From contig CDROCS010005166.1 of assembly GCA_977020255.1 (NCBI GenBank), positions 1 through 64,000 of the forward strand: a DNA stretch of 64,000 bases, in the 5' to 3' direction. The notes below the pieces were generated by a model that was not told where the DNA came from, did no database searches, and was given only the letters and a program-made list of their open reading frames with translations. Both the position numbers and the translations under genes were made by a program. This DNA is from Obrimoposthia wandeli. Its lineage: Eukaryota. Below are positions 35,514-64,000 of this stretch, piece by piece (the stretch's first letter is position 1; each line of letters begins with the position of its first letter).

Positions 35514-36769
35514 CTGCAGACAGCCAATACACATATCACACAATTAACTTCCACAACACAACATAACCTCTTATTCTATGACAAATATTGACAAAAAATT
35601 ATGCTATAAAAAACTTTTAAGCTTTTATATAATATCTTCATTTATGACTCCATTCAAGAAATCCAAACATCGTATTCATTATATTATTGAAAAAATTAAA
35701 TATGCAGTGCTTATATTTAAATTAAGTTAGATTTTTGTAATATAAAATTTGTAATATCCGACATAACAATACTTTAGAATTCTACTTAATTGAAATTTTA
35801 AAGCATATCATTATTTAATTTTCTCAAACAATCTACTCAGTAGTTATCATATAAATACATAAAAGGCTTCCGATTCAGATAACTTAATTTTTGTCTTATA
35901 AATTTAATCCTGTGATACATTAACAATTACTGGTGTGTATATTCTTTTAAATGCAAAGATTTAGTTTATTCATTCATATATACTAATTACATCATTCAAT
36001 ACAAGTCTTATAAGTCTCAACATTAATTAATTTTATTGTAATTTTTCTTGATTTTTTAGTACACCTACATAATTACATCTCCTCAACCCCACCAATCAGT
36101 ACAAATTCCATTTTATTATTTAATATTACTATAAGTTTATATAATTTCGAGAAATGTACTTTAACTTGTGCATGTAACACATTTATCTATAAAGTATTTA
36201 ATTAAAATTACACTTTAATCTGAACTGTACATTGGGTTTAATTTTTTAATAAATATTAAAATAATAGTAATTTAAATTATTTTAAAAATCTATATTACTA
36301 TTACTAAAATCTATATATTTTTTGTTTATCTTCGGAAATATATACGATTTATCTATTAACATCAATACTTATTTTAACAAAATTATATACCAATATGATT
36401 TATCTACTTATTTATAATTTTATTAACCCGTTCGCAGCTATGTAATTTTAAAAGAACATTTGTTTTATACAATTGTTAAATTTAAAGGTTTTTCAAAATT
36501 TTATTGTATGACAATTTATTTATTATGTGAATTTGATTTAATGTAATTTTTATAAAAGTTATATTATTATGTTGCTGTTTGAAAATGTTGAAATCCTCCA
36601 ATGTCTGATGAGTATGTTTTTTACATCATAGCTCTCTATAATAATAATTTAATCAGTTTTATGTAATCAGTTGTAATCAGGACTCGAGTTTTCACTGGAC
36701 AAAAAGATTAGTCTAAATAAAACCACATGATAATATAAATAAACTAGATATACATATACAATATCTTTA

Positions 36770-39700
36770 TAAATAAACTCATTTAAAACATATAATGCTC
36801 AGAAACACTTGTCCCATACTAGCCAATTCTAATAAAACTATTTGCATTTGATATAACAGAAACCTTAAGGAGATATTCCGTTTCAAAGTGCACTTTACCA
36901 TTTATTTTTCCTAAAATAAGATATATTTTCTAAATTTTCATTATATAGATTTCTAAATATCTCTATAAATAAACTTATTTAAACTATAAAATGCTCAGAA
37001 ACACTTGTCCCATACTAGCTAATTCTAATAAAACTATTTGCATTTGATATAACAGAAACCTTAAGGAGATATTCCGTTTCAAAGTGCACTTTACCATTTA
37101 TTTTTCCTAAAATAAGATATATTTTCTAAATTTTCATTATATAGATTTCTAAATATCTCTATAAATAAACTTATTTAAACTATAAAATGCTCAGAAACAC
37201 TTGTCCCATACTAGCCAATTCTAATAAAACTATTTGCATTTTGATATAACAAAAACCTTAAGGAGATATTCCTGTTTCAAAGTGCACTTTACCATTTATT
37301 TTCCTAAAATAAGATATATTTTCTAAATTTTCATTATATAGATTTCTAAATATCTTTATAAATAAACACAATTAAAACATATAATGCTCAGAAATCATCC
37401 TGTCGATTAGATGATTCCAATAAAACTATTCAGGTTCTGCACTTGAAAAGTATTTCACAAAAGTACGGAAATATTCTTTCTAACGGCGGTTCTATCATTA
37501 ATTTGACCAAAGATTTAATATATTTTCAGATTTTTTCATCATATAGATCTCATACTAGCTCAAATCTAATAAAACTATTTGCAATTTGATATAACAAGAA
37601 TTAAGGAGATATTCGTTTCAAAGTGCACTTTACCATTTATTTTCCTAAAATAAGATATTTTGCGAATTTGGTCCCTCACAATTTTTCATTATATAGATAA
37701 ACTTCTAAATATCTTCCGTGATAACTAAACTTATTTAAACTATAAAATGCAATCAAGAAATATTGAACACTTGTCCCATACTAGCCAATTCAATAAAACT
37801 ATTTGCATTTGATATAACAGAAACCTTAAGGAGATATTCCGTTTCAAAGTGCCACTTTAAGGGGCCATTTATCATTTATATAAAATTAAAAACTAAAATT
37901 AAAATATTTTGAAAACATATAGACATCATAGAAAAAAATAATTCTGTTGCAAAACACTTTATTTTCTTTTTCAAATTATTCAAAAGAAAAATGAATTCAA
38001 TTGCTTTTTAAATTATCGTCGTATTTAGAAAAATCTACCAGCTCTTATTTTTTATTTTATTAATTTTTAAAAATTGCTTTGATAAAATGCACATAATTAT
38101 TCACTTGTCCCATACTAGCCAATTCTAATAAAACTATTTGCATTTTACAATATAAATAACAGAAACCTTAAGGTTAGTTTTGAATTATTCCGTTTCAAAG
38201 TGCACTTTACCATTTATTTTCCTAAAATAAGATATATTTTACTAAATTTTTCATTATATAAGATTTCAAATATCTCTGGTCATAACTAAACGAAGAAAAG
38301 GAAGCTAAAGAAAATATTTAAAAAAATTCTATAAAAAAAAACTCAGTGGAAACACTTGTCATACTGATCCAGCCAATTCTAATAAAACAACATTTGCATT
38401 TGATATAACAGAAACCTACTACAGGAGGATATTCCGTTTCAAAGTTTGCTCCCTGGACTTTACCATTTATGTTTCCTAAAAACGTAAGTGATATATTTTC
38501 TAAATTTTCATTATAAGATTTCCAGCTAAATGGGAAGAATCTCTATAACTAAACTTATTTAAATTATAAAATGCTCAGAAACACTATACTAGCCAAATCT
38601 AATAAAACTATTTGCATTTGATATAACAGAAACCTTAAGGAGATATTCCGTTTCAAAGTGCACTTTACCATTTATTTTTCCTAAAATAAGATATATTTTC
38701 TAAATTTTCATTATATAGATTTCTAAATATCTCTATAACTAAACTTATTTAAACTATAAAATGCTCAGCATTTCTTGCTCATATATTGTATTCTTTTACT
38801 ATTTTAATGACTAAACATAATGAGTATATAACAGATCATGAAAACTCATCTGCACATTTATTAGCACACATATTAACAGGTTAAACCATCAGATATTTTT
38901 CAAAAAAGTTTTGAAAATACCATTTAAAAATAAGGTATAGAAATATTTTGCTTCGAATAGTTCATAAAATTTTTAAGCTCAAGAGGTCTTGGCCAATTAC
39001 AAACTATTTGGATATAAAGAAATAATGGAGAATTCGTTTCATTTACCATTTATGTTTATTTATTTTTTCAAAATTTGATATTACTGCAAAACATTTTACT
39101 AGATTTTTATGTTTAAACATATTTTCAAAAAATATATTTGAAATTTTAAACTATAAAATGCTCAGAAATCAAGATTCTATTATTGCCGAATTTCAAAAGT
39201 CTAATTTATTTAATAATATTCAGATAACAATTTTCATTGTATCAGATTTCTAAATGTCATCTCCGTATAACTAAACTTATGTTAAACTGTAAAATGCTCA
39301 GAAACACTTGTCCCATACTAGATTCTAATAAAACTATTTGCATTTGATATAACAGAAACCTTGTAAGGAGATATTCCGTTTCAAAGTGCACTTTACCATT
39401 TACGTGCCTTTGCGGCTCATTCACTAAATTTATAAGATATATTTTCTAAATTTTTTCATTATATAGATTTCTAAATATCTCTATAACTAAACTTATTTAA
39501 ACTATAAAATGCTCAGAAACACTTGTCCCATACTAGCCAAAAATGCGTTAAAAAACTATTTGCATTTGATATAACAGAAACCTTAAGGAGATATTCCGTT
39601 TCAAAGTGCACTTTACCATTTATGTTTCCTAAAATAAGATATATTTTCTAAATTTCACTCAAAAAGTTATATAGATTTCTAAATATATAACTAAACTTAT

Positions 39701-40200
39701 TACAATAAACGCAACATTGAAGAGTAAAATGCTCAGAAACACTTGTCCCATACTAGCCAATTAAATACTAATAAAACTATTTGCATTTGATATAACAGAA
39801 ACCTTAAGGAGATATTCCGTTTCAAAGTGCACTTTACCATTAGTATTTTTCCTAAAATATGAGATATATTTTCTAAATTTTCATTATATAGATTTCTAAA
39901 TAGACGAGCAAACAATCTATAATACTCAAGAGATTTAGACTATAATTTTATTGAAATACATTTTGAAACATCAACCTTAAATATGACGAAATTTTCAATC
40001 AAAATCTATAACTAATTATTTTAAAAACCTAGAATCAACATTTCCAAATGTTACAACTATTTTGTGCTGTTACAAATTGTAGAAATTTTCATTATATGAT
40101 CTTTTTCTCTACTTATTTAAACATTTAGCCAATTCTAATAAAACTATTTGCATTTGATATAACAGAAACCTTAAGGATATTTGATATATTCTAAATCGAT
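36770..40200. repeat. Tandem satellite, unit about 196 bp, about 14-16 intact to corrupted copies
   Basis: atgctcagaaacacttgtcccatactagc recurs at 36795, 36991 and 37187, then irregularly to about 39900. Confidence 0.92.
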
Positions 40201-40609
40201 TTCTAAATCATCTTTTAAATACAGAAAATACAATTAAAAACTTCGCAGAAAAGAAATGCTAGAAAGAAGCACATTTAAGATGAATTCCAATAATATGTAA
40301 ATGGATTTGTATTGGTTTTTCTGTTATATTTTGTTTTAAAAATGAATATTCTATTTGTTTTATCATTAATTTGACCAAAGATTTAATATATTTTTTGTGT
40401 GGGCAGATATTTCATCATATAGATCTGATACAATATAAAAAATTCAACCCAAGTCTCTCTCTGTTAGTTTTATTTTGAATTTTATCCAAAAGTCAATAGA
40501 GGAGACGTTTTAAAGAATAATATAAATTCACAAATATTTTTGCGAATTCTGGTTTAGCCCTCACAATTGAGGATTTCATTTTAGATACAATTTCATATAT
40601 ATTTTTCGG

Positions 40610-41997
40610 CGATCGTTCCGTGATAAGAAGAAGAGACCTGTGGCAGTACAACAATAACAACGCAATTCAAGACAATATTGATCATTATTTTAGTGACAGC
40701 ACAAAAAGTTCACCATCGTGCAACCTGGAATCCGAAGACAACAACAATGGGTACTTCACGAGAAGCAAATCAACGGACGACAGAGGACAACCTCATAGTA
40801 ATCGAATCGATATTGAACAAGACCACATGGCAAGGCCACAAGACCCGGCATTGGGTAAAATACTCCAGCTATTGCATGGCATGGACATGTACTGACGTTT
40901 ACCGGATAATACTCCTGCTCCTACAGTATTACCTGAACACTTTGAGGCAGGACCCATCAAGCTACAAATGTTACAAGAGGATGCTCGCAGATAAAGACAA
41001 ACGTTCTCTGCACGAGGCAGAAGGCCTGTATAAGCTCAGCGAGCATATAGCACCTCCAGTGACGGACGGTTTCCAAGTCGTGGTTACAACACGCACCGAG
41101 GCCGTGGACGCCCAGCGGTTGTTAAAGGAGCTGGCCTCCCATAGCGACGAGGCCTATTTGCGATGGTAACGGAACTATTTGTTTATCACAATAATGTCGG
41201 CGAACGTTTAGAACAACGTACCACGACCACAATTGAGCGTGATCACAATCGAAGAGTTCATTCGCAGCCCCCAGAGTGCACATCCGTATGTAACTCAAGT
41301 CTCGCCAGTCAGCAATGCAGAAACAGATGGTTCGCAATCAACACAACCTGCGTACTTCAATGATTCTAGTGGTTGGAAAGCTTTCCACAGGAACAAAAGA
41401 AATGTACACAAGAAACCGGATCAACCGTCGCTGCTTGAAGCCTATAGGCGTAACCTACTATTGGGAAACTTCACAGTGCCGGAAGATGACGGAGACAGCG
41501 TCGATCTCGGCGCCTGGTTACATGCTTTAGCCACGCTTGGTTTTGCAAACTACGTAGCCCAAGTCTTGGAATGGCCATATGCGATTAATTATCTACACAC
41601 TGATCTCCGGTGTAGTTGTTTCCTCTTCCTACAGAATCAGGCTCATACATGGCAATGGGACGAGTTACAGGACAACAAGGTATGGGCTACAGACGCCACC
41701 CAGTTTTCAGTGGCAGTAGTGCAGTTGCGACCTACGTGACACATACACATGACGCTCAAGATTCCTGAAAGAAATATTTACATACAAGAAGCCAACCAAA
41801 GCCTCATTTGGACCTCAAAGACCAAGAGGATTCCGAGTGCCATGAGTGAGTGGTGGATCGTGATAGCGCTGCAGATCTTGGTAACTATCAAATGGATAAA
41901 AATACAATACATTATGTCAGAGCGGAATCCTGCAGACAAGCCAGAACCGGAAGAGGATTCGACTCAGGCCTTTCAGGCGATGATATATGATATTTAA
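40610..41997 (+). mobile_element. Degraded reverse-transcribing element: one reading frame (stops at 41167, 41209 and 41737) ending in a hepadnavirus/HEART-like RNase H
   Basis: ORFs 40678, 41233 and 41749 share one frame; motifs WATDAT, RNIYIQE and YIMSERNPADKP; LATLGFA thumb-like block. Confidence 0.65.
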
Positions 41998-42009
41998 AAC
42001 TAGCAGAGA

Positions 42010-42594
42010 GATTCTGGCATCTCTATGTATTTTGCCATATGTTATATAATAAACTCCCACCAATCACATCACGCCTGGAATTGTTGTTGGTAGGCTGAGA
42101 GTGATATGACGGTAAGGAGCGACGGTTGATCCGGTTTTTTGGCCACATCTCTTTTGTTACTGAGGAAAGCTTTACAACCACTCGAATCATTGAAGTATGC
42201 AGGTTTTGGTTGATTGGGAACCATCTGTTTCTGCATTACTGACTGGCGAGACTTGAGTTACATACGGTTGTGCACTCTGGGGGCTGTGAATGAACTCTTC
42301 GATTGTGATCACGCTCAATTGTGGTCGTGGTACGTTGTTGTAAACGTCCACCGACATTATTGTGATAAACAAATAGTCCCGCTACCATCGCAAATAGGCC
42401 GCAAACGTCAAGCGTCCACTGCCTCGGTGCGTGTTGTAACCACGACTTGGAAACCGTCCCCTGTCACGGGAGGTGCTAGCACGTCGGGCTTTGTACTTGC
42501 TGATCTCATCGGCTGATAAATCGTTGATGCGTACCAATTTGGAGACTTTGGCCTCTGCAGCCGTCCACCCCACTCTCGAATATAGAAAATTCAA
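42010..42594 (-). mobile_element. Inverted, diverged partial copy of the same RT element
   Basis: Reverse complement of about 42118-42484 aligns to about 41051-41432; continues with YRHITL (RT motif A-like). Confidence 0.85.
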
Positions 42595-45993: not shown

Positions 45994-47051
45994 CCCTGTT
46001 TTCGCGCTACTAGCCGCGACTTTTTAGAGCAAAAAGGTTATTAAAAAAGGCTTATTAAAGGGGTGTGGCTTATATAGTATTATATCTTATTTTCTCGCAC
46101 TGCACTTCATGACAATAAAACTACTTTTTACAGAAAAATAAAAATTACTATGTAAATTTAAATTCATTTTTACAATTCGTTGATATCATTAACATAAAAA
46201 TGAGAAATAACTTAATATTATCTTCAAATTCTTTTGGTTTGTCATCTTCAAAACCTTCAATAAGTATTCCAGATAATTTTTCTCTGACATCGTTGTTATC
46301 GTCAGAAGAGTCATAATCTTTTCATGAATTTAAATACCCAATTGACTGAGCTCTTGAAATTATCAATATTCATCGTTCTGGTCAGTTTTCGAGCTTCTAT
46401 CAAAATTCGATAACCAGTAATTTGAATTGTCTTGGATCGTTGCTCAATTCCAAATTCCAATATAGGCCGCTTGCAGACTCTAAATCGATGTAGAGATCTT
46501 CTGCTAGTGCTTGTAGTTTGTAAAATGTTATCTTCATTTTTTCTCCAACGTCTTACCATGGATTCATCAACACGAAAATGTTTAGCAGCTTCTCTGTTTG
46601 AAGAATTTTTCGCGAATTCTATGGCTGCTATTTTATGGGAAAGAGAATATGTTTTTCTCGACTTTCAACTTGCCATTCTAGCGGTAGACAGTTTTCTAAA
46701 TTTAGTCAAAAAAATGATTATGAATATTTATATATAAATAATTCTTATCCAAAAACTATAAAAAACGTATTTTTCTCAAAAATTGTTCGTTATATAAAAA
46801 TTTGTTTTATAATATTTAACATCCAATATTTAAACTATCAAAAGGTTTATTAATTTAAATCTATAGACAAATTCATAATTAAAATAAATTAAATTAAAAA
46901 CTTAAACAAAAACATGAAAATAAATAATAATTTTACTTGATAATAAGCCGCGGCTTGTTGACATGGTGCGGCTTATTATATGGAATATAAAAGTTTTGGC
47001 AATGAAAACACTCTTAATTAACGTGGAGCGGCTAGTAGCGCAAAAACAGGG
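45994..47051 (-). mobile_element. Non-autonomous pogo (POGK-like, Brinker DBD plus CENP-B HTH) element with TIRs and TA target duplication
   Basis: TA|CCCTGTTTTCGCGCTACTAGCCGC ... GCGGCTAGTAGCGCAAAAACAGGG|TA; DESMVRRWRK..KSSVNWVFKFMKR. Confidence 0.9.
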
Positions 47052-47329: not shown

Positions 47330-48750
47330 GTAAGAAAAGTTACCTGAGATCTTTCCATTATTTAATTTATAATGATAATCTTTTGGAGCTGGGCATATAA
47401 TGTCAACACCATGATCTGGTGCAACTACATATGTAAATTGTCCTAAATTAGCACCTAACATTTTTCTAAATTTTTCTAAATGGTTAACAATGGTCATGTT
47501 CACATTCTTTATTATCACATGATCTGTGTAACTCAGGAATCAGTATCTGTTATCATAACATTTTCTTGTAGTATTTCTAATCATTCATAAAGTCTCAATC
47601 TTGCATGAGTTGTTGTAAATAAAGCAATATAAATATTTGTTGCTCTAATAGGTTACTTCCAAGCTTCTTTTAGTCTATATTTTATCATCCAAACTTATTC
47701 ATTTAAAATTATAGGACTAATATATTTATATTTATTGTTATACATATATTCACATATTTGATCATAAAATGATCATGTCCCCATAAAGAATTTAGACAAA
47801 TTTTAGCAATAATAAGATAAGATAAGTTAAGAAGGAAGACAAGTTTTAGCTATAAATCTAAGACCTGCATTATATTTCATTTTATTGATATCTAAATTAT
47901 AAGCATTTTGCTTCTGCAAATATTATTTTTGTTTCACAATTATTGTCATTTTTATAAACAGGAGAACATAAGTTTTCTTTACATTTACAGTGTGAAGTTT
48001 CTAATTTATATTTCATAAATAAGGGTACATATTTATCAAATAGGCCTTTCTTAGCTTTATCAAAATGAGGAATATCGTATATGTCTAAAGGTCAATATCC
48101 TTTTATTAAGAGCTTTATTTGTTCAATTGTTGGCCATGTACCTGTTATTGTTCTTTCATTGTCATTATAATTACATAATTCATTTTTATAATTACAACAA
48201 GTATCACAAGTTTTATAGCATGATTACAGTTAGTTCTGTTTTTTATACATATAGGATATTTACTTTTTGTGTGATTTTTATATTGTTCAAAGGGGCAATA
48301 ATTATTCATTTTTAAATTAATACATTTACTAGATAATTTATGCATACATTCTTTAAATAGGCCAAATAATAATTTTGGGCAGAATCCATTTCATGTTTAT
48401 AACTTTAAACAGGATGAAAAAAAATTCTTGGAGACAATACTTTGCATTTTATCACACCAAAATAATTTTTGTATTTTGAATATATTCTTCAGGTTCAACA
48501 TTTAATAATATATTAGGATAGTCAATAGGATATTCATCATATTTATTTCCAGTTGGATATAATGATACAAAATCAACATATCTAAATGTTGGCTTAATTT
48601 TAATATGGTCAATTTCTATTCCTTTCTCATTATTTTGGATCCAATATAATTGCATTGGCTTAGATCTTCCTCCATAAAAGGCATCTTTTGATTTTAGTCT
48701 AATTAACGTTGAGTCAATTATAAAATCATTATTTGTCATTATTTATTTAT
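47330..48750 (-). pseudogene. Polinton/Maverick protein-primed DNA polymerase B remnant
   Basis: DAFYGGRS, YVDFVSLYPT.NKYDEYP, IYIALFTTTHARLRLYE..TDTDS, LGANLGQFT..PKDYHYKL. Confidence 0.88.
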
Positions 48751-51870: not shown

Positions 51871-52254
51871 AATATAGAAAATGTTAAAAAAATAATTAAA
51901 AATTACTATTTGATAACCCTTAATCATCTATTTGAGATAATACAGCATGAATTCTGTCAAAGTGTGTATCTGTTGAGAATGATTTTAGAATAATTGAGAG
52001 TTTTTATAAAAGAATTTTATGAAAATATTAAGTTTGGAAATATTAGAGTTCGTTAACAAACAATTAGAAAAAATATTAATTAAGAATTGATTAACTAATG
52101 CACTTTGGCATTTTGATTTTTTATAGATAAGGTTTTCTGTTTCAGTCCCCGACCGGCTTCACTGGTTTTGCCCTACCGGGCTCATCGGGGAGATGGCAGT
52201 TTATCTCTGGCTACGCGGTAGGCAAAATGAAAAATATATTATTTTTATCATTAT

Positions 52255-53115
52255 AATGAACCACTTTTTATGACGATGAATCCTCTTTGCCAGAATTCTT
52301 AAATATATACGATTAATTTGCTCAGGCATTTGAATAGACTGGTCCAGAGAAACATAGAGTTTTTCTAACATACGTAAAAAACACTACCCTAATTATTTAT
52401 AGAGGATTAAAAGATCCGCTAAAAGACACATGGGAACATTTAGTGCAACATTTTCAAAATATGGTTTTAGGAGAGCAGTCAAACCAGTATTACTAAAATC
52501 AACCAGAACAATATATAGGAGAACCCACAAAGATTTTCGCAGTTGATTTACGACAACTAGCACTAAATTATTTCCCGAAATAGAAGAAGCCCAAAGAGAA
52601 TGATTACTCGTACACTAATTCTTACATGGATTAAATAAAAAAATCATAGAACACCCAACACTACTGGAGGTAGATAAATTTCAAAAAGCTATAGACAAAG
52701 CTCAACTAGTAGAAGCAAGACTAAATATGTTACAGCAAACCGAGGTTTCGGCATTATCTTCTGAAAAAATACAGCGACCACAAATAACACCAAACTACAA
52801 CCAAACTCAAAGTTTTAACCCTAACACACAATATACTTTTCACGATTTCCAGCAATTCCGACCACCAACAAATAAATTTTACAGACACTAGACAAATAGA
52901 AATTCCTAAAACTCACAATTTACACAAAGATCTTTTAAGAAAGATAATAATACAATACCAAAAAATAATAATTTCATTAATCAAAATAGATGTTTTAATA
53001 ACATTACGAAATTTTGTAAAATATCTAATACGAAAAATCATAACACCGACGACTGTGGAAAATTAAACACAGTGATGAATCAATTTAATAACACAACAAT
53101 AAAACAACAACCATA
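52255..53115 (+). pseudogene. LTR-retrotransposon (Gypsy-like) gag remnant
   Basis: TWEHLVQHF..Q..GEPTKIFAVDLRQLA..FLHGL pattern, N/Q-rich linker and HNTDDC knuckle-like end; many stops. Confidence 0.6.
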
Positions 53116-53508
53116 AATTCAAAAAACAGTACAATTCAGTACTCAAAACCAATCATGTATAGTATACACACTTTTGAAAATACAGATAAAACTCTACATA
53201 CGGACGAAGTTTCAATGTTAAAATTAAGACTTAAAGTAATGGATAATCAATACATAGAAATACAGCAACAATATCATAATAATGAACACATTCAGATAGA
53301 ATAAACTCACAATCCAATTGTGGATTCATGTTTAGAGACAGTTGTCTAGCATTAAAAAAGGTATACATAAAATTACTAAAACAAATTAAACTACTCAAAC
53401 ACAAAATAAGAAATCAATAAACAAGAAGAAACGAAAAAGATCAAAAAGTCACAAATTAAAAATATTAAAAAATGCATACTATTTCAACATACAAAACATA
53501 CAAAACTT

Positions 53509-54725
53509 ATGGAAAATAATTCAAGTACTATTTACAATTTGTTTATTTATAAATATAATAAAACCAATTAATGCTTTAGAAGCATATGGATGCTCAATAT
53601 ATAAATTACAAAATAAATATTTCTTAATGGATTTGCAACATTGTGCACACTGACTTAAACAAAGTAAAAATTAAAAATACAAAATTAAATCAAATATACC
53701 AATAAACAGACTTTATAAATGCTGAATTTTTGAATGTAGAGTAGACGTAGATACTTTATAACATATTGTGGACAAAATAGTTACAAGTGAATTGTAAAAC
53801 GTGCATTAGGAAAAACGCCAGTAATAGTTGAAATAATAAATTGTAAAGATGCTTTCACTACAGGAGAATTGAGAATAAATAGAGAAATCAAAGTTCGAGT
53901 AACAAAAAATAAAATAATTCAACAAATTATAACAGTTGTAGGTACAGATTAAGTCTAACGGTGAATATACAACTGGAACATACATCGTAATGGGAGTTAA
54001 GAAAAGTGGTTTAGTAGTCATTAAAAACTTTGAAGTCGAAATAAGAACTTTCAAAGCAATATTCGACGCTTCTAAAAACAACATGGTACCAATTCCGAAG
54101 CTAATATAGGTCACTGTTTTTCAATACTTTACTACAAAGTAAAAATGGATCAATGCAAATTAATACAACTAAAATCAGAAATAATTAAAGGACAAAGATT
54201 TAGAGACGATCTAGATCTAGACCAACGAATTCCAAAAGACATACACAAAATATAGAGAACTAGAAAAATTCTGCTATTTTAATGTCAACTGAACATGGTC
54301 CAGGAATGATATTTATTAAAAAGAAAAAGGGATCCCGTTGTGGAAACCCTGTTTATACAACTAATTATAAAGGATTCTATTTAAGTAACGAAAGATTACA
54401 TAATGCTAAAACTATACCAACCAAATTTGACGTAAAAAATTATGATTATTTTAACAATAAATTAGATTATTTTTACCATAAAGAGTTAATGACAATAGAA
54501 GCAATACATCGAGAAACAATAATGAATTATTGTAGATTAAATCTAGAAATTTTAAGTAAAATTGGTAATTATTGCTACTAATCCTGAATTAATAACACCA
54601 TTATTACCCTTAGCAGATGATACTTTTGGAAGAGTAATGACTCATTACTAATGAGTGAAGTATTATATACTTATCAATTTCATAAAGTAATAGTTAACAT
54701 AAGAAATCACAAAAAATGCACTAAA
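53509..54725 (+). pseudogene. Chuvirus-type / gB-like class III viral fusion glycoprotein pseudogene (env-like)
   Basis: hydrophobic start, ALEAYGCS, (C)RVDVDT..TYCGQNS, CKDAFTTG, RCGNPVYTT, YFNNKLDY, YCRL, EVLYTYQ..KV.V.IR..KKC. Confidence 0.65.
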
Positions 54726-54789
54726 AGTAGGTAGAAGGATGGAGTCTAGATCACTTGATTCCCCCTGTGTGCACACACAATGTTAAAGG

Positions 54790-55190
54790 GTGTCACACCA
54801 TAAGGGTATATGTTGCCTCACCATAGGGGTATCACACCATACGGGTATATGTTGCCTCTCAATAAGGATGTCACACCATAAATGTGTCTTGCCACACCAT
54901 AAGGGTCTGGCTCAGAAAGGTTATAAAGGTTTTAAGGTATGTTTGTGACCCTCTATGGTCGTCTATAGATGAAAGGGTCGGGCTCAGTTTTGAATTGAAG
55001 ATTTGAAGGTATGGTCATGACCATCTATAGTCGGCCAACATGTCCAAGGGTTTGTAATCGTCCATAGATGAAAAGGTCGGGGTCAGTTTTGACTTGAAGA
55101 TTTGAAGGTATAATTGAGGTCAACTATGCTTGGCCATCACATCTAAAGGGTTGTGGTCGTCCATAAATCAAGGGGTCGGGCTAAAAACAA
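54790..55190. repeat. Tandem repeats: about 39-bp units (tcacaccataagggtatatgttgcc) then about 100-bp units (ggtcggg.tcagttttga.ttgaagatttgaaggta)
   Basis: ggtcggg anchors near 54976, 55075 and 55175. Confidence 0.8.
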
Positions 55191-56329
55191 AATCAAGTTT
55201 AAAATATCAAGGTTTTTAAAATAAATATTAAGGAAAAATGTTTAATAAACTCAAAAAACTTTACTAACATTATGATGAAAAAAAAATTTTTTTTCAATTT
55301 CAATTTGTGCAAAAATTAATTTTTTAGTTTTTGTTAAAGTAAAACCAATTTTAATTTAACGGATTTTTTAAAAATAAAATATTAAAGTATAGTTTATTTT
55401 AAATAAATATTAAGCAAAAAAAGAATTTTACATCAAAATTTCTTAAAAATTTTATATTGAAATGTAATTTCTTTAAAAATATTAAAAGAAACTAAGAAAA
55501 ATGTTTAATCAAAACTAATAAAAAAAATTGTGAATATTTAAATATACGCAAAGTTTTTATTGTTTTTATTGATGTAATTAAACAAATTTGATTTTAAAAC
55601 ATTAATATCAAAATGAATTTAATCGAATAAAAGAATAATATATATATAATTTATTGAAATTATAAAATTGCAATAATCAACCATGTTTAATAAATAATCA
55701 ACCTACTGTAAGTATTTTCATATTATCTATTGACGTATATCCGAAAGATCAATATAACTATTATCAAAACTGATTGAAACTTTAAAAATATCTTTAAAAT
55801 TTGGGCGTTTTATTATTTATAATTAATGTATTAAAACAATGCCAAGAATTTTATATTTCAAATGTATTGCTATTCATATTAATTTTAAATTATTATTAAA
55901 TAAATAAAACATCAAACAACATTTATTTTGAAATACGTTTTATTTTAAAATATTATATTGAAGTAAAACCTTTTTCAGAAATCATGTATATTTCAGGATT
56001 CTGCATCAGTTCAACCTTATGATTTAACATTAGCACTTGCGCAGCTCAACCCAGGAATGCTTAAATGTTAAGTGGTTCTAAACCATCTTTGATGAGAGTT
56101 TTTCTTCTGAATGTTTGAGGTCAACTGTTATTCAAATGTTATTCAAAGTTATTAAAAGTTTTGTTTATAAATTAGAATACCAAATCTTTAATTATATTAT
56201 TTTATATGTAAATAAATCAAATTATGTACATATTCGATTATCAACTTAGTATTTCTATTTATTATTCGACTTTCTAAAAAAATAATTAAAATGTCTTGTA
56301 AGAACACATAAAATAAATTATCGATTGTA

Positions 56330-57120
56330 TGAATTAATACAAGTGTAAATGTAAATAAAGCAAGTACAATAAACAATGAATGCAAGTACAAGTAAGAAAG
56401 AATACTATTGCAAGTACGAATGTCAAGTATGAATGAAAATTAGTAAAAATATTAATGAATTTAAGTGCTAGTTTGAATAAATGAGAGTTAGAATGAATGT
56501 AAATGAATACAAGTATGAATGCAAGTGAATGCAAATACAAGTAAAAGTCTTAGCAAGTGATTGTATTTGAAAAAAATATTATGAGCGTCAAGAGTATGAT
56601 TGAATGCGAGTGTAATTTAGACTATAAGTAAATTAAAATAGAGTTTTCGTACGAATAAAAGTTATATTAAATGACAGTTAGATTAATAACAAGTAAGCAA
56701 CTATAAGAAGCAGCGATACTGAATTTTGTTAAAAGTTAGAACGACTAAGTTACAGCGAGATTAATAGAAAACAACACTAAGTTTGACGGTATGAATGAAA
56801 ATGAGCAAAAATATTAATGTATTTGAATGATAATTTGAATAAATGATAGTTAGATTGAATGTAAATGAATGTACGTATGAATGAATGCAGCTACAAGTAC
56901 AAGTAAGAAAGAATACGTTTGCAAGTATGAATGTCAAATACAAGTACGAATGTCAAATACAAGTATGAATGAAAATTAGTAAAAATCTTAATGAATTTAA
57001 ATGCTAGTTTGAATAATGAGAGTTATAATGAATGTAAATGAATGCAAGTATGAATGCAAGTGAATACGAATACAAGTAAGAGTCTTTGCAAGTGAATGTA
57101 AACTATAAGTGAGTACTAGC
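56330..57120. repeat. Degenerate duplicated minisatellite-like block (gaatgcaagtacaagt / tgaaaattagtaaaaatattaatgaattt)
   Basis: segments at about 56430-56550, 56790-56880 and 56960-57090 are similar to each other. Confidence 0.8.
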
Positions 57121-58209
57121 TAATTATTAAATTAATACTATCAATCAACGAAGATGATGTAACAATCTGATGAAATTATAATAATTAAGATGTGAATTTT
57201 CATATTTTATTTTCACGTATTTTACCTTAAAGTACTTGTTCTAAAGTTATCAGTTCATACACACTCACGCAATTAAATAATTAAAATCGTTTGATAACAT
57301 TCCTTGATTTAAATATTTTTAAATAATTAGATAAATTAAATTTTTTTATTTTCAAATAATTTGATTATACAAATATATTCATAAATATAATTTGAAATTA
57401 TCATTATTCGTTTCTCTTTTTAACTATTTGAAAATATATTTATATATACAAATTTAGTTTAATGGTTTAAAATGATACTAAGTGGTAACAAGAGTAACTA
57501 AAAAGTTAGTAATATCGAATGTGTAAATGAACTAGAGTTATAGAGTTTGACTGAAATTGTAACTGAGGACGTTAATTAGTATAATAATAATCTTCACACA
57601 AAATATATATATTTAAATTACTTGATTTTTTTGCCATTGTCTTATTAATATAATATGAATATTCAATTTATTTCTTTAAAAATTCATTTTATATATTAAA
57701 CAATATTTCTTTACCACATTATTGTGGTTTTTTATCAAGTGATTTTATCTTTAAACTATAAAACTATTTTAACTATAAAGTTAGTAGCTGTACAGCGCCG
57801 ACTGCATATAATATTTATATTTCAAACAGAAGTTATTATTAAATTTATTCTTTTAAATATTAAAAGTTCTTTCGAGATATTTAATTTTGTTTACTAAACA
57901 TTCGAAAATTGCTTGTAAACATAATATATTTTTGAATATATTTAGTTTAATATGTTGTAAGTTATTATTGTAATATTCCATTACATAAAAAGTAATTGAT
58001 AGATTTATATCGTTTACAATAAACTGAAAAATATATACATAGTTGTAAGCAAATCAGTAATAATTGATTTAAACTATATTAACCTTGTTTAATTTCGAGT
58101 ATATTATATTCTTAGACTTAAATATGCAAATTTCAGTTATGAGTTGTTCAACTATGAATATTTTTAACTTATTTCATGATTTACAACTAAAAATTTCAAA
58201 TAGTTAATC

Positions 58210-59768
58210 ATAATTTCAACAGGAGAATGACTATATCAATTTAACGTTTTGCCATTTGGATTAACCGGTGCTCTAGAAACATTTCAAATATGTATGAGTC
58301 ATATTTCAATGAACGCAGAAAATGTGATGGTGAATATTGACAACATTCTTATTTTCTCGAAAACATTTGAAGAACATTTAAAAGATTTGGAAAACGTTTC
58401 TATAAGATTAAAAGTAGCAGGATTAAAATGTAATCCAAAAAAGTGTGAATTGATAAAAGACAAAGAAAATTATCTAGGCCACGTATTATCAGCAAAAAAA
58501 CACAACCAGATGAGAGTAATGTAGAAAAAATAAGAAATTTTACAATCCCAAATTCTGTAAAAATTTACAAAATATTTTTAGGACTTGCTGGATATTATCA
58601 TAGATTTATTAGAAAATTTGCACAAATAGCACCATTTCTAAATAAACTTGTTAAAAGAGATGAAAAATTTGAATGGGAAAAAGAACAACAAGAATCGTAC
58701 GAATTTTTAGAACAGCAATTAATTTAAAAACCTTTACTCCAATATCCTAATTTTAATAATTTATTTTTAGTAGTGACTGATGCCAGTGGTTATGCATTAG
58801 GATCAGTTTTAGAACAACACGATAATAATGAGAAAGATCATGTTATAGCATACGCAAGTAGAGGTCTCAACATGAAATAAACTACTCAACAATAGAAAAA
58901 GAGCGTTTAGCCATCTGTTTTATAATCGAACATTTCAAACATTATTTATTAGGTTGAAAAGTTTATGTTTATACTGATCAAAGACCCCTACAAAATCATA
59001 AAAATACGACATATAGATTAATGAGATGGGCATTGATATTACAAAAATATGATATTGAAATAAAATATAGAAAAGGCAAATCAAACGCTAACGCAGATTG
59101 TCTATCTGGAATAAGAGAAGAATAAAATATTATTTCTTCCAACAATACTAAATTAAATCTTTTTCACAACAATTAAAGCTAAATATGATGAAATAGTAAT
59201 TTCTGAATTTCAAAGTAAAGATGCTGAAATTCAACAAATAACTAAATATATTAGAATAAACCTAATACCAACAAATGAAAAACTAAAAAAAAACATTTAA
59301 AAATTAATGAATCACGATACAAATATAGTAATAAAAATATTATTTAAATGACAAAATTTTGTATTCACTGGAAATTCCTAAAACAATGCAGTGTCAATTC
59401 CTTTTTCAATAGCATAATGGAATCCTTGGAGGACATTTATCATCAAAATATACACATTCACGATTATACCTAAAATATTATTGGATCAACATGAAATAAG
59501 ATGTAAAAAAATTGTTGTAGAACATGTGAAGTATGTCTTTAACAGAAAAATACCAAAAAGATTCCTTTCAAACCAAAACTTTATACATCGAACCGTTGTA
59601 TTGGATATAATGGGGCCATTACCTGAAACACCCCATAGAATTTTCCGATTATTTTACAAGATGGCCAAAGGCTTTTCCTACAATAAATATTAAGGCTGAA
59701 ACCATCGTGAAGGTTTTTGTCGAAAAGATCATTTTTTAATTTTTACCCGAAAGTTATTAACGGACAAA
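58210..59768 (+). mobile_element. Gypsy pol pseudogene (RT, RNase H, integrase), truncated at 59768
   Basis: YQFNVLPFGL, NIDNILIFS (YxDD degenerate), [32 protein letters not shown]. Confidence 0.92.
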
Positions 59769-60240
59769 AGTAGTATATAGTGTCGGTTATAAACCAAATG
59801 ATTAAAGCCCCACCCCCGAAGGAGGCTTTTCTTTTGATTTAGTACCAACAATATAGTGCCTAAAATGTCTCTATATAGTCATTTTTAGACAGAATGTCGT
59901 TAAAATGTCTAAAAATGGTTTAAATTAGCTTAAATTGACTCATCAAGTCTCAAAATCCTGCATACAACACCAAGTCAGGTCTGGTGTTGTATACAGGATT
60001 TCGAGACTTGACAAATCACGCATACTTCGCCAACGGTAATAGGTCCCGCTCAGGGGGGTACCCTTTACTGCAAAACCATTTTTAGTGTTGTATGCATGAT
60101 TTCAAGACCATTTTAAAATATCGCACTATATATCTTACCGTTTAAAACAAAAGTAGATTAAGTAGATTTTAAGTGACCAAAGTCTCCTTTGCGGAGCCTC
60201 CTAAGAGAGGAAGACCGGGCAGCACCTTTGGCAAAGATTA
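59769..60240. mobile_element. Putative Polinton/Maverick-like terminus with multiple hairpins
   Basis: starts AGTAGT where the integrase stops; 30-bp stem at 59943-60011 and 12-bp stem near 59880-59917. Confidence 0.5.
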
Positions 60241-60346
60241 TATATTTATATTACTTTTGTTTATAGTAAACCTTGAAAAAGACAAATAATAAAATCAATT
60301 AATTATTTATTCATATGATAAATAACATTAAAATAAAATCAATTAA

Positions 60347-60880
60347 TTATTTATTCATATGATAAATAACATTAAACTTTCTTATGTCCTTCAGTAATTC
60401 TCCAAATAGGCTTCTGTCTCCCAAGTCTATCGACTTTGAATCCTTGAATTTGAATAAATAAAATCCAATATTTGCTTTTGGAAATTCTTCTTCAGAGTAA
60501 GTAAATATTCCTTTAAACAGATGTTCATCAGCTTTAATAAAAACACTAAAGTTTTCAATTTTGATATCTAATTTTTTTCTTCTAAACATAGAATTGATAT
60601 TATTAATATCATTTTAATGGATCCTTGAGATTACATAGTCAAACTTGGACTTTGTTAGCATAACAGGGTATTTTAGTCCGAAGGTAACAGGCATCTTGAG
60701 ATAATTCATTGTATAACTGAAATAATGTACAGATTCTTTGAATAGGTTTTCTGTTTCTCCATTAAAAATATCCTCTAATTCTGTATCATCAGAATCTATC
60801 TGTACAACTTTGCTTGTATTTAAAATTTCATTCTTCCTCTTCTTTGTGCTCTTCAAAATCGGTTTTTGAAAATTGAACAT
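60347..60880 (-). pseudogene. Intronless hypothetical ORF pair (88 and 80 aa), probably one broken virus-like gene
   Basis: adjacent same-strand ORFs with protein-like composition; no family recognised. Confidence 0.35.
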
Positions 60881-61004
60881 GATGAATGAGAGTAAACTGA
60901 AATGTTTCAGTAGTTATAGTTGACTACTTGAATCTGATTGGTTGATTCGCACTGGATAATATGAAACTATATATATTTGTGACACCATCAATTATTATCA
61001 CATA

Positions 61005-61134
61005 ATGAAAATAATCAATATAAATTATAAAGGTAAATTTAAGAGAAGTGTTAGTCACTTACCTTTTCGATCAAAGAAACCTATACAATATGTTGAAAAG
61101 TTAAAGGATTATACTATAGTTATATTTCCAACAG

Positions 61135-61199
<65 letters not shown>

Positions 61200-61235
61200 A
61201 TTTAGGCTCATGCAGAATTATGGGTTGCAAACAAT
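61005..61235 (+). CDS. TBP-fold-like ORF interrupted by a 71-nt (ATT)n GT-AG intron, truncated
   Basis: spliced VIFPTGSCRIMG matches the spacing of the TBP LIFSSGKxxxTG strand motif; N-terminal IININYKG. Confidence 0.5.
61137..61197. repeat. (ATT)n microsatellite
   Basis: about 20 units. Confidence 0.95.
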
Positions 61236-61269
61236 TAAATAATTAAATATTTATTGAAACCAAAATAAT

Positions 61270-62290
61270 ACTGAAAGATTTTTATTGTTTGAAAAAATAT
61301 TTAAGCAAAGAAGTTTGACTGATTTCTTGACTGATAGTCTTTAATTTAAATTCATCAGACGCTTTGTCACCTAACAAAAGATTCAGACGATCTTTTGCAA
61401 TTTTATACCCTGGTTGTGCTTCTTCTTTTTTGCTAAATAGTAGGCATTTCTTCCAAAACAATCCTGTTTTATCCACATTAAATATTTGATGATCACTGTA
61501 ATTACCATCTTCAATATTTTTTTAAATTCATCAGGATATTTTGTGGCCGCTTCTACATCAGCACTAGAACTTTCATTAACAATTCTAACATTATGAATTT
61601 TTGTACGTTCTTTAAAACAATTGAACCAACCGCCGCTCGCATTAAAATATTTTTCTTCATTTGTTTCTTCATTTGTAGTCGTAGAGGTCTCTTCATTTTC
61701 ATTTTGAGTGGTAGCTGCGCTAAAATGACTTCTTGCTTTTTCTTGAATAATAAGTTGACTGAATGGAATTTTTTTATCATTACAATCTTCAATCAAGATT
61801 AATAACAGTCGGTGCATATTCAACATGTTTTTGTCTCTATTTTTTGCAATTCTTTTCGACATGTACGATGCAGTAACAATTCTATGATCTTTATATTGTT
61901 GTTTCTTCTTTACAATGGCACGCACAGATGACTCATTTATTTTATAATCGAGTGCAATTTTAGCCAATGATGCACCATCTTCATGTCACTTTATAATATC
62001 TAGTTTATTTTCTAATGTTAGCCACTGTCGTTTGTTTGGACCAACATTGTCTGTGCTTCCTTTTGTTTGACTTGACATTTCAATACAATCTGTTTTAATA
62101 ATAGTATTCTGCACTTTTGACTCGGAAAAATATCAGATGAAAGAATAATTTCTAAAATGTGAGTTTTAAGAATATTATAGATAGATATTGAAATCAATTT
62201 TGATATTTTTAAAGGATTCAATATGGTTTTATTCTATATTTTATTTATTTACTAATATTTTACGAAATCCGCACTATAGTGAAACCTGTA
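61270..62290 (-). mobile_element. Tigger/TIGD1-like pogo transposase pseudogene, 3' truncated
   Basis: KIALDYKINESSVRAIV, FNASGGWFNCFKER, NVDKTGLFWKK; TIR-like end near 62270-62290. Confidence 0.88.
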
Positions 62291-62396
62291 CTGTTAGGGG
62301 TATTAGTGTATAATAATAATTTAATAAATACAAGTATCTGTATATGTATTTATAAATCTAAATATAATGAAGGTAAAGAATTTTTTCTGAAATGAT

Positions 62397-62774
62397 TTGT
62401 GTGCAATTATATGGGTTTATGTCTATCCTAAACAACCTGATTTTTTTAGTGTTATCATATATGTCAGTTACCCTCAAAATACAAGGGACCAATTTGTTAG
62501 AATCGTAGACCTAGGTGTATCTATCGAAATCAGAACTGATCTACACCATATCCATCCAAAAAATAGGGCTAAAAACATATTAAAATATTTCGGAGAGAAA
62601 ACACAGAAACTTCACATCTGCCGGGAAGACGCTAAAAATATTAAACGGATATTCGATAAGCGGAGAGATCTACTGGTAAAGGAATTCCGTCTGGATGATT
62701 TGTTGAGTGCTCCACAGGTTATTTCAGACTCCGTCTCCGATGACTGCATGACTTTAGCCAACTCTCAATTTTGA
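62397..62774 (+). CDS. Hypothetical 125-codon ORF, unknown family
   Basis: open frame with higher GC than its flanks; no recognisable motif. Confidence 0.3.
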   Translation: MCAIIWVYVYPKQPDFFSVIIYVSYPQNTRDQFVRIVDLGVSIEIRTDLHHIHPKNRAKNILKYFGEKTQKLHICREDAKNIKRIFDKRRDLLVKEFRLDDLLSAPQVISDSVSDDCMTLANSQF

Positions 62775-64000
62775 AGTTAATATTAATGTTACATTATTTA
62801 GAAATATTTATTGTTTTGCATATAATAGTATTTTCTGACGTCAGAAACTTTTATAACTCGGACGATTTTTGAGAATGTCAATTTTCTACCAATCTCTGTA
62901 TAGTCTCAGTCAGTTTCACACACAAACCGATACTTCCACTCTCCTGTCTCTCTTCCCATCTCGCTCAGTAACAGCTGTAACAATGAGTCTACCCTCTTTC
63001 ATAAAAGAGCTAGTGTGTCATGGTGCATCCCTGTGACTTAATTATCTCTACGTCACTAAGTCACAGTAGCCTCTTCCTCTATGTGTGTGTTCACCGTTCG
63101 GATATTTGTGAAGTGTGTTGAGGATCTTCTTTAGCGCTGCCATTGCTTGTGTGTTGCATTTGATACTAAGTGAGGTGCAGTCATATTTAACACTGTACTG
63201 AGTGACCTGAAGGCACAATTTCACTTAATACAAAAAAACTCATTTTGACAATTTTTTATGGACTTAAATTAAAAGAAATCTAATTTAGTCAAATTATTTC
63301 ATATTATTTATCCTTCGAATCATAATTTACCAATTACAAGACGAAAGTTTATGATCTAAACAAAGACAATATAGTCGAATTATTCAATGAAGTTATTATT
63401 GATTCTTCGAAATATGGTAACATTATTACTGTCATTACAGAAAAAAAGATTATTGTTTACTATTGTTGTTTTTCATTTAATTATTAAAACAATAAAATTT
63501 CTGATCATTATTTTTTTTAGTGCTGAAAATATAATTTTAGCTGATCATAATTGTTGCTGAATTTTTTGCTATTGAATTAGTTCGAAATGATTATCTATTA
63601 AAAAAATAAAACAATATTATTTCTAAGTTGATATTCGTTGGAAATGTGTGTTTGTTCATTATAACAATTTCATTTTTCTAATGACCAAAACTATTAATTT
63701 TCTTCCATTTGGGTACACTTTTGACTGACATACCCCTCTTGTTCACGTTTAAAATTTCCTTTCTTGTGTCCTTACTGATCTTACTGACACCATCAGAAAC
63801 AGATTGTTGACAGTTTTGACCAAAGTGTGTGTTCGGTATACAGTAATTATTCACCTGTAAGGGTATTCATTAAAACGTGTTTTTGAGAGAGACCGACACC
63901 GAATCACTTATAGATGCATTATTTAAAAGTCTCACCTGTAAGAGTACAGTCGAATATTCAAACAAGAACTTAAAATCCTGAAAAGATGTTTACTTACATT

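What the first reader, a model, noticed from the sequence alone, without database searches (positions are those of the whole stretch)
52255..54725. Gypsy-like gag followed directly by a chuvirus-type class III fusion glycoprotein, with no pol between
Seen: about 400 bp after a decayed gag, a frameshifted 1.2-kb region starting at ATG 53509 keeps a Cys-spaced series: AYGCS, CRVDVDT..YCG, CKDAF.TG, CG.PVY.T, Y.N.K.DY, C, EVLYTYQ..V.V..R...C. Knowledge: this pattern fits chuvirus-like glycoproteins, which are known to have been captured as env by BEL/Pao elements. Inference: an enveloped Gypsy-type element with a gB-like env. Either pol is internally deleted, or the order is an atypical gag-env-pol, because a same-strand Gypsy pol starts at 58210 beyond an insertion.
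Basis: partly seen in the sequence, partly recalled or inferred. Interest (0 to 1): 0.72.

Follow-up and report, generated by a model that had tools for sequence, protein, structure and literature searches.

The report
Enveloped retroelement with antisense LTR ribozyme
This is a broken copy of a very abundant retrovirus-like element whose one long gene puts a herpes/chuvirus-type fusion protein between gag and pol, a layout already published for flatworms, but its end repeats also carry a conserved hammerhead ribozyme motif on the opposite strand that likely cuts antisense transcripts.

Summary
The glycoprotein is real and pol is not missing. Window 51971-62877 is one decayed insertion (about 80% nt identity to young copies) of a high-copy Ty3/Gypsy family. 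Young copies read LTR, PBS, gag, signal peptide, env, TM, PR-RT-RH-IN, tail, a separate exonuclease ORF, LTR. Gag, env and pol share one frame. A sister copy's env matches PF24664 (E 6e-86), folds like chuviral G and herpes gB, and has dN/dS 0.04. The 58.2-kb pol is the same insertion, cut off by a 1.96-kb loss and a 3.49-kb repeat insertion. ATG 53509 is out of frame, and the 'gap' is coding linker. This order is published: planarian Burro (in frame) and GAG-ENV-POL gB-type errantiviruses. The less expected part is a type I hammerhead in the LTR, antisense in 27 of 27 pattern matches, with compensatory changes across at least five LTR variants; 4,017 exact cores occur genome-wide against 0 in the control. 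Five paper searches found no such case in an autonomous animal LTR element. The scan earlier noted a hammerhead in a solo LTR and the post-integrase module on other DNA of this genome. Cleavage and expression are untested.

The parts
51971..52229 (+). First ~260 nt of the 5' LTR (TG start); rest of LTR, PBS, leader and first gag codons (~2.45 kb) missing
   Evidence: 83% to LTRs that follow the exonuclease ORF in other copies; family LTR match
52145..52197 (-). Type I hammerhead ribozyme motif inside the LTR, antisense to the element; degenerate in this copy (two core positions off consensus, does not fold as a hammerhead)
   Evidence: model R1 65 bits, E 2e-15 (the window's copy was among the model's inputs)
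52266..53150 (+). Decayed gag (capsid region, part of the zinc-knuckle region; ~150 nt lost near 52943)
   Evidence: tblastn 52-66% aa, blastn 80%; Atlas Retrotrans_gag/Ty3 capsid 0.94 for the sister frame
53151..53509 (+).
   Evidence: (dN/dS 0.27 between subfamilies)
53510..53575 (+). Predicted internal signal peptide, ending in a signal-peptidase-like site (PINA)
   Evidence: hydropathy; same feature before env in 10 of 10 public polyprotein relatives inspected by eye
53576..54725 (+). N-terminal ~395 of ~540 residues of a gB/chuvirus-type class III fusion ectodomain, frameshifted and with stops
   Evidence: sister-frame model pLDDT 89, Foldseek
54726..58215 (.). Later insertion(s) of unrelated high-copy repeats (3,490 nt) in place of ~1,956 nt (env C-terminus, TM, protease, RT start)
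   Evidence: (env-end to pol-start distance 1,955-1,957 nt in C1678, C1404, C78)
58216..59771 (+). Decayed pol: RT (C-terminal part), RNase H, N-terminal part of integrase
   Evidence: RVT_1 E 2.5e-14; 81% nt to family; dN/dS pattern equal to the env piece
62484..62771 (+). C-terminal part of the element's accessory DEDD exonuclease ORF
   Evidence: 59-61% aa to the exonuclease ORF of copies with the same LTR variant, 39% to the main subfamily
62834..62877 (+). Conserved pre-LTR motif and first 11 nt of the 3' LTR (10 of 11 identical to 51971-51981); rest of 3' LTR not found up to contig base 82,000

Best explanation
The locus is a dead, repeatedly interrupted copy of a Ty3/Gypsy errantivirus family whose young copies carry gag, a gB-type env and pol in one reading frame, predicted to be made as a membrane-spanning polyprotein, and whose LTRs hold an antisense hammerhead motif that likely self-cleaves. 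Shown: gene order, shared frame, fold class, purifying selection on env, LTRs with PBS and 4-bp target duplications, ribozyme structure and covariation. Inferred: Gag stays in the cytosol; the internal signal peptide threads env into the ER and host signal peptidase frees its N-terminus; the TM returns PR-RT-RH-IN to the cytosol, tethered to the env tail until the element's aspartic protease releases it. Capsid, fusogen and enzymes thus meet on one membrane and bud as enveloped particles that spread between cells. Inferred with lower confidence (about 0.4): the hammerhead lies in U3 on the antisense strand, so it spares the genomic RNA and clips transcripts running backwards through an LTR, which would limit antisense or double-stranded RNA against the element.
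For: One frame: L043 is open from gag through protease for 1,549 codons in the stretch. Gag knuckle and env share a frame in 12 of 19 copies, env end and protease in 14 of 18; breaks elsewhere are scattered. Short-read contigs of 4 runs (one sample) show no indel above 31% of depth over gag-env-PR of an in-frame copy. Two metagenome contigs have 3,426- and 3,703-aa frames across env and pol (the second also gag), plus the exonuclease ORF. Env: PF24664 E 6e-86; model pLDDT 89; top hits chuviral G (E 2e-40, TM up to 0.74) and herpes gB (E 6e-13). dN/dS env 0.04 and TM/tail 0.01, like RT 0.03, versus linker 0.27 and spacer 0.30. Pol best matches Ty3 (E 2e-127). One insertion: env piece dN 0.100/dS 0.515, pol piece 0.104/0.529; both 81-82% to nearest scored copies; LTR and exonuclease pieces point to the same LTR variant. 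Hammerhead: (95% of cells paired, 9 of 18 pairs with changes on both sides, 0 of 500 shuffles as high on four of five measures).
Against: No examined copy is open end to end (longest frame 2,154 aa among 150 scored, against about 2,750 expected). Ten of the 20 copies were chosen for long frames; among the ten chosen by score only 3 of 9 keep gag-env and 5 of 8 keep env-PR in frame. An A-run in the linker carries a one-base indel in 5 of 20 copies and in the window and in 12-24% of contig depth. Topology rests on hydropathy alone, and a second hydrophobic stretch follows the TM. dN/dS comes from one pair of copies with dS near 1. The hammerhead scores 32.4 bits against Rfam's cut-off of 34, folding z-scores are weak (-2.0 to +0.25), and shared descent inflates covariation counts. 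No match to the family model in 20 stretches of five larger env-related elements (three with LTR pairs located).
Confidence: 0.85

Rival explanations
1. The 58.2-kb pol is an independent insertion of the same family, and the gag-env piece is a pol-less fragment.
For: The family is very abundant (2,489 and 3,426 first-look candidates), so neighbours occur by chance; 3.49 kb of other DNA separates the pieces; no target-site duplication can be read for this copy.
Against: Same strand and collinear order of five pieces (LTR, gag-env, pol, exonuclease, LTR start); equal dN and dS; both pieces rank the subfamilies alike; the 3' LTR start matches the 5' LTR start at 10 of 11 nt.
Confidence: 0.07
2. 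Gag, env and pol share a frame, but most Gag is made separately, by ribosomal frameshifting at the linker A-run or by splicing, so the full polyprotein is a minor product.
For: Retroelements usually need excess Gag (general knowledge). The linker A-run is a recurrent indel site. The Met pair before the signal peptide is present in most main-subfamily copies inspected.
Against: Those Mets are absent in the second subfamily and in the window; indels at the A-run go both ways, as for homopolymer slippage; no recurrent large joint in the contigs (run kind unknown).
Confidence: 0.3
3. The hammerhead is a Penelope- or retrozyme-derived passenger fixed in an ancestral LTR; it is kept as a hairpin or promoter element, or it serves short LTR-derived RNAs, and does not guard against antisense RNA.
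For: Type I hammerheads are common in animal Penelope elements and retrozymes (PMC7761336, passages). A different hammerhead type occurs in this genome (3 of 48 distinct sequences). The larger env-related family lacks the motif. Some motifs lie in close tandem (808 and 169 nt apart).
Against: The unpaired catalytic core is kept across variants whose flanks are mostly 45-67% identical, while stems I-III change in compensated pairs. Copies found without the pattern show further compensated stem III variants. A plain hairpin would not need the core.
Confidence: 0.4
4. A BEL/Pao (Anakin-like) element or a free chuvirus glycoprotein insertion next to an unrelated gag.
For: Best structural matches are chuviral glycoproteins; such capture is published for mosquito BEL/Pao elements (PMC7642597, search listing; PMC13524379, passages).
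Against: Pol has Gypsy-type domains and best matches Ty3; no BEL/Pao Pfam family is hit; the closest env relatives (40-46%) are retroelement polyproteins, stand-alone ~650-aa glycoproteins only 24-30%.
Confidence: 0.01

Closest known systems
GAG-ENV-POL HSV/gB-type errantiviruses of Platyhelminthes (Smed_errantivirus_1-6, Mlig_2, Pcro_1-2), Nematoda and Bryozoa; Chary and Hayashi 2026, PMC13524379
   Same: Gene order, gB-type env, Ty3/Gypsy pol, multicopy. By eye the env motifs and eight domain I-II cysteines match the C1a rows of their supplement. Their Smed_1-4 spans, less 6 kb of flank, are 8.5-8.9 kb against about 8.3 kb here.
   Different: The main text has no 'polyprotein', 'single ORF', 'fused', 'exonuclease', 'ribozyme', 'hammerhead' or 'antisense' and lists no LTR or PBS for the six Schmidtea elements. 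This family has 1.0-1.6-kb LTRs, a PBS, an exonuclease ORF and the hammerhead.
Burro/GYPSM1 giant Gypsy elements of planarians (PMC6431247, section 7)
   Same: Env in frame between gag and pol with hits to mononegaviral fusion proteins; gag with CCHC knuckles (three here).
   Different: About 14 kb rather than over 30 kb; no BIR, BCL2, MATH or dUTPase hit in the gag-to-protease frame. A larger env-related family in the same genome (LTRs about 21.6 kb apart, env 40-41% identical) shows no match to the hammerhead model.
Plant LTR retrozymes (PMC4918200, PMC7761336; passages)
   Same: Hammerhead embedded in both LTRs; PBS and 4-bp target duplications of Ty3/Gypsy type.
   Different: Retrozymes are non-coding, about 1 kb, use type III hammerheads, and the cleaved RNA carries the PBS. 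Here the element is autonomous and enveloped, the ribozyme is type I and lies on the strand opposite the PBS and ORF.
Rotifer Vesta/Juno LTR elements with DEDDy exonuclease ORF3 (PMC5408684; passages)
   Same: An accessory 3'-5' exonuclease ORF after pol.
   Different: There it replaces env and is RNase D-like; here it coexists with env and is closest to ISG20/ISG20L2 (E 1.5e-8).
Nematode endogenous retroviruses of Sacco et al. 2022
   Same: Env-before-pol order (as cited in PMC13524379); a continuous gag-env-pro-pol frame is recalled from memory.
   Different: Paper not held; not compared.

Membership tests
Ty3/Gypsy LTR retrotransposon (Metaviridae) | Paired LTRs with TG...CA ends and short target-site duplication | tested here: met
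   LTR pairs in 15 of 20 copies, 91.5-99.7% identical; 4-bp duplications in 9 of 9 copies where both ends were located, of 19 examined
Ty3/Gypsy LTR retrotransposon (Metaviridae) | tRNA primer-binding site after the 5' LTR | tested here: met
   TGG motif 1-2 nt after the LTR; 1,353 genome matches against 34 in the control; cognate tRNA not identified
Ty3/Gypsy LTR retrotransposon (Metaviridae) | Polypurine tract before the 3' LTR | tested here: inconclusive
   A conserved pre-LTR motif exists but only its last few bases are purine-rich
Ty3/Gypsy LTR retrotransposon (Metaviridae) | Capsid/CCHC gag and PR-RT-RH-IN order, Ty3-like RT | tested here: met
   (gag has no Pfam hit; Atlas lead 0.94 and CCHC spacing only)
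Ty3/Gypsy LTR retrotransposon (Metaviridae) | Placement in an RT tree with reference clades | not tested
   No reference set in hand; best-hit evidence only
GAG-ENV-POL HSV/gB-type errantivirus | Env between gag and pol | tested here: met
GAG-ENV-POL HSV/gB-type errantivirus | gB-like class III ectodomain flanked by signal peptide and TM | tested here: met
   tested on a natural open frame of a sister copy
GAG-ENV-POL HSV/gB-type errantivirus | Cysteine-bridge configuration as in flatworm C1a | tested here: inconclusive
   Eight cysteines and neighbouring motifs agree by eye with supplement rows; no alignment run, bridges not read from the model
GAG-ENV-POL HSV/gB-type errantivirus | Fusion activity and particle formation | not testable with these tools
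   Only selection on env bears on it
BEL/Pao element with chuviral env (Anakin-like) | BEL/Pao gag-pol domains | tested here: not met
   No BEL/Pao Pfam hit; Ty3 best match
Burro/GYPSM1 | Giant polyprotein with anti-apoptotic cargo between gag and env | tested here: not met
   About 150-residue linker only, no cargo hit
Type I hammerhead ribozyme | Conserved core, three stems closed at II and III, NUH site, covariation | tested here: met
   RF00163 E 9e-5 but 32.4 bits, under the cut-off of 34; hammerhead is the minimum-energy fold in 4 of 5 young variants
Type I hammerhead ribozyme | Self-cleavage | not testable with these tools
   Needs an in vitro assay or RNA ends
LTR retrozyme | Non-autonomous, non-coding, ribozyme on the PBS strand | tested here: not met
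   Autonomous coding element; ribozyme antisense in 27 of 27 pattern matches

The most novel reading that the evidence does not exclude
An autonomous, enveloped animal LTR retroelement has built a catalytically active hammerhead into the antisense strand of its U3 as a fuse that cuts antisense transcripts before they can trigger small-RNA silencing. Together with a captured ISG20-like exonuclease and a one-frame gag-env-pol polyprotein, this would be an RNA-level counter-defence not described for retrovirus-like elements.
Probability: 0.35. Interest if true: 0.8.

Novelty: new variant of a known kind. Interest (0 to 1): 0.52.

Why it matters
As flagged, the finding is one more member of a published class. 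Two things add value. First, env amino acids are conserved as strictly as reverse transcriptase in a family with over a thousand recent copies, which argues that membrane fusion is part of its life cycle; the single frame gives testable predictions about topology and processing. Second, hammerheads in LTRs were described for non-coding plant retrozymes, and in animals for Penelope-type elements. A selected, antisense hammerhead in the LTR of an autonomous enveloped element would give a natural ribozyme a role in the conflict between transposons and small-RNA silencing, and it can be tested with a 55-nt RNA.

Tried and rejected
ATG 53509 as env start and a non-coding gag-env gap: rejected. A shared frame break at env residue ~340 in the top hits as a programmed frameshift: rejected as ascertainment, since the query's out-of-frame end ranked such copies first. 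A by-eye idea that the post-integrase tail is a second gB fragment: no alignment (E 3.6); the tail found no homologues (lengths 222-709 aa only) and only an FN3 lead under 0.9; not folded. Expression: no RNA holder listed; the four runs are contigs of unknown kind from one sample, so says nothing on splicing, strand or RNA ends. Rfam on window 50-62 kb missed the degenerate hammerhead. Hammerhead outside this genome: four viral contigs match the core pattern but encode no relative; none in four metagenome loci, which show no LTR pair. No env relatives in prokaryotic or viral contigs. Sacco et al. 2022 not held. Three sequences of another hammerhead type were dropped from the 48 before alignment A2. 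The possible pairing of a 5' GCC with loop II is 93% paired but has only two double changes: weak.

Full report
Observation. ATG 53509 overlaps the Leu and Trp codons at the front of a hydrophobic stretch and lies in another frame, so it is not a start. The one open 105-aa piece hits PF24664 (Monjiviricetes_fusion) only at E 0.017, but used as a query in the own genome it gave 12,134 first-look candidates, of which 150 were scored, at 76-80% identity with open frames up to 2,154 aa.

Family structure. I fetched up- and downstream stretches of 20 of those 150 copies, ten taken in order of score and ten for long frames. The order is 5' LTR, PBS, leader, gag with three CCHC knuckles, a 150-residue linker, a signal-peptide-like segment, env, TM, protease, RT, RNase H, integrase, a tail with a second signal-like and TM-like segment, stop, a separate ORF, 3' LTR; about 14 kb. 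LTR pairs were found in 15 of 20 copies (one at 91.5%, the others 97-99.7%), and 4-bp target duplications in 9 of 9 copies where both ends were located. The PBS motif occurs 1,353 times against 34 in the reversed control. Pol matches Ty3 best (E 2e-127). Gag has no Pfam hit but resembles Retrotrans_gag/Ty3 capsid clusters (0.94). The separate ORF is an RNase_T-family exonuclease closest to ISG20. The host is probably a planarian; this is inferred from the relatives and was not determined.

One frame. Gag knuckle and env lie in one open frame in 12 of 19 copies, env end and protease in 14 of 18; for the ten copies chosen by score alone the counts are 3 of 9 and 5 of 8. Breaks are mostly single-base indels at scattered places (155 indels, 115 of one base). 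An A-run in the linker is hit in 5 of 20 copies. Short-read contigs of four runs (one sample, kind not on record) laid on an in-frame copy show no indel above 31% of depth, and 12-24% at that A-run. A second subfamily keeps both junctions in frame. Public proteins P0004, P0005, P0014 and P0016 carry env, protease, RT and integrase in one chain. Two metagenome contigs have frames of 3,426 and 3,703 aa across env and pol (the second also gag), followed by the same exonuclease ORF. No own-genome copy examined is open end to end; the length of about 2,750 codons is inferred from overlapping frames of different copies.

Env. The natural frame of a sister copy matches PF24664 at E 6e-86. A search of 1.84 billion representatives gave 1,136 hits; the best (40-46%) are retroelement polyproteins, and stand-alone ~650-aa glycoproteins follow at 24-30%. 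The AlphaFold model (108 sequences, pLDDT 89, pTM 0.72) matches chuviral and related glycoproteins (Tacheng tick virus 4, E 2e-40; TM up to 0.74) and herpesvirus gB (E 6e-13, TM about 0.43). No RxK/RR furin motif was found. Between one copy of each of two subfamilies dN/dS is 0.04 for the ectodomain and 0.01 for TM and tail, like RT (0.03) and integrase (0.05), whereas linker and spacer, which must also stay open, give 0.27 and 0.30. Env is therefore conserved as a protein, not only as an open frame.

The window copy. It aligns to the family at about 80% nt over 52266-54725 and 58216-59771. In three intact copies the two ends lie 1,955-1,957 nt apart; here 3,490 nt of unrelated high-copy repeats lie between them. 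The env piece has dN 0.100 and dS 0.515, the pol piece 0.104 and 0.529; gag-env holds 14 frame-breaking indels and pol 13. Upstream, 51971-52229 is the start of a 5' LTR. Downstream, 62484-62771 is 59-61% identical to the exonuclease of copies with the same LTR variant, followed by the pre-LTR motif and 11 nt that match the 5' LTR start at 10 places. Five collinear pieces of like age make one insertion the best reading.

The hammerhead. About 90-180 nt inside the LTR the antisense strand reads as a type I hammerhead: stem I, CUGAUGA, stem II, GAAA, stem III, GUC. In the 40 env-selected stretches all 27 pattern matches are antisense. An exact pattern gives 4,017 matches in the genome and 0 for the reversed control; many come in same-strand pairs about 13 kb apart. 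A minority belongs to another hammerhead type (3 of 48 distinct sequences, dropped before alignment). Elements with four further LTR variants carry env and gag or pol on the opposite strand. On 45 distinct sequences 95% of cells pair, 9 of 18 pairs change on both sides, and slid controls pair at 30-51%; relatedness inflates these counts, and many rows were found by a pattern that fixes the core. Against that, three variants were found without the pattern, flanks are mostly 45-67% identical while the block is 62-86%, and 7 of 9 loci picked through the exonuclease-side sequence (six places) have the motif in antisense, with further compensated stem III forms. Results against: 32.4 bits, under Rfam's 34; weak folding z-scores; no model match in five larger env-related elements of this genome or in four metagenome loci. 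The window's own copy is degenerate.

Mechanism. Shown are order, frame, fold, selection and RNA structure. Inferred, by analogy with signal-peptidase-processed viral polyproteins (own knowledge): Gag cytosolic, env lumenal after an internal signal peptide, pol cytosolic behind the TM and released by the protease, all on one membrane. How excess Gag is obtained is open; frameshifting at the A-run or splicing remain possible. For the ribozyme I favour cleavage of antisense transcripts that cross U3, at about 0.4; a retrozyme-like or passenger role is the rival.

Literature. PMC13524379 (abstract, sections 5 part 1, 6 part 1 and 14, passages, flatworm rows of supplements 1 and 2) reports GAG-ENV-POL gB-type errantiviruses in flatworms, nematodes and bryozoans; its sequence files outside the supplements were not seen. 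PMC6431247 (section 7) reports env in frame between gag and pol in Burro. PMC5408684 (passages) reports exonuclease ORFs in rotifer LTR elements. PMC4918200, PMC7761336 and bioRxiv 10.64898/2026.07.22.740005 (passages) place LTR hammerheads in non-autonomous plant retrozymes and animal ones in Penelope-type elements. Searches listed no report of a hammerhead in the LTR of an autonomous animal LTR element; most listed papers were seen as listings only, and subscription journals and RepBase are not covered. Sacco et al. 2022 was not held and is recalled.

Verdict. The flagged feature is real and belongs to a published class. The antisense LTR hammerhead, with the exonuclease ORF, makes the family a new variant worth a cheap test. 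Interest 0.52.

Noticed in passing
L066:3806-5020 (family copies; absent from the window): The long frame continues past integrase into a signal-like segment, ~310 residues and a TM-like segment; dN/dS 0.44, 51-72% identity between subfamilies, FN3 lead of 0.86 only. P0004, P0005 and P0014 also have hydrophobic segments after integrase.
   Followed up: partly
L062:5011-6183; window 62484-62771: The accessory ISG20-like exonuclease ORF varies far more between subfamilies (36-95%) than env or pol, as if the cassette is exchanged; also present in two metagenome relatives.
   Followed up: partly
L043, env residues after the TM (frame residues 1197-1235): A second hydrophobic stretch after the TM is almost invariant, even in P0001 at 45% overall identity; dN/dS 0.01. 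Role unexplained (re-entrant helix, lipidation or Gag binding).
   Followed up: no
L050:8064-8131: A second, older LTR-like piece with its own decayed hammerhead variant lies directly before this copy's 5' LTR.
   Followed up: partly
G000 C76, C2006, C6901 (L205-L224), L071-L100: A larger env-related family (LTRs ~21.6 kb apart, frames up to 5,301 aa, env 40-41% identical) coexists in this genome.
   Followed up: partly
L202:97-11205: Metagenome relative with a weak ubiquitin-like hit (E 0.005) between gag and env in its 3,703-aa frame; several public relatives have two or three protease-like repeats.
   Followed up: no
window 61285-61985 (-) and 46314-46664 (-): Decayed Tc5/pogo-type transposase DNA-binding regions (HTH_Tnp_Tc5, BrkDBD); the first sits inside the element's span.
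   Followed up: partly
window 47330-48742 (-) and 60350-60913 (-): Fragments that look by eye like a family B DNA polymerase and an unknown ORF; no Pfam hit.
   Followed up: partly
window 36760-40215; 27537-28544; 41064-42459: A degenerate ~196-nt tandem array, three 354-nt repeats, and a 1.4-kb element with long inverted ends.
   Followed up: no
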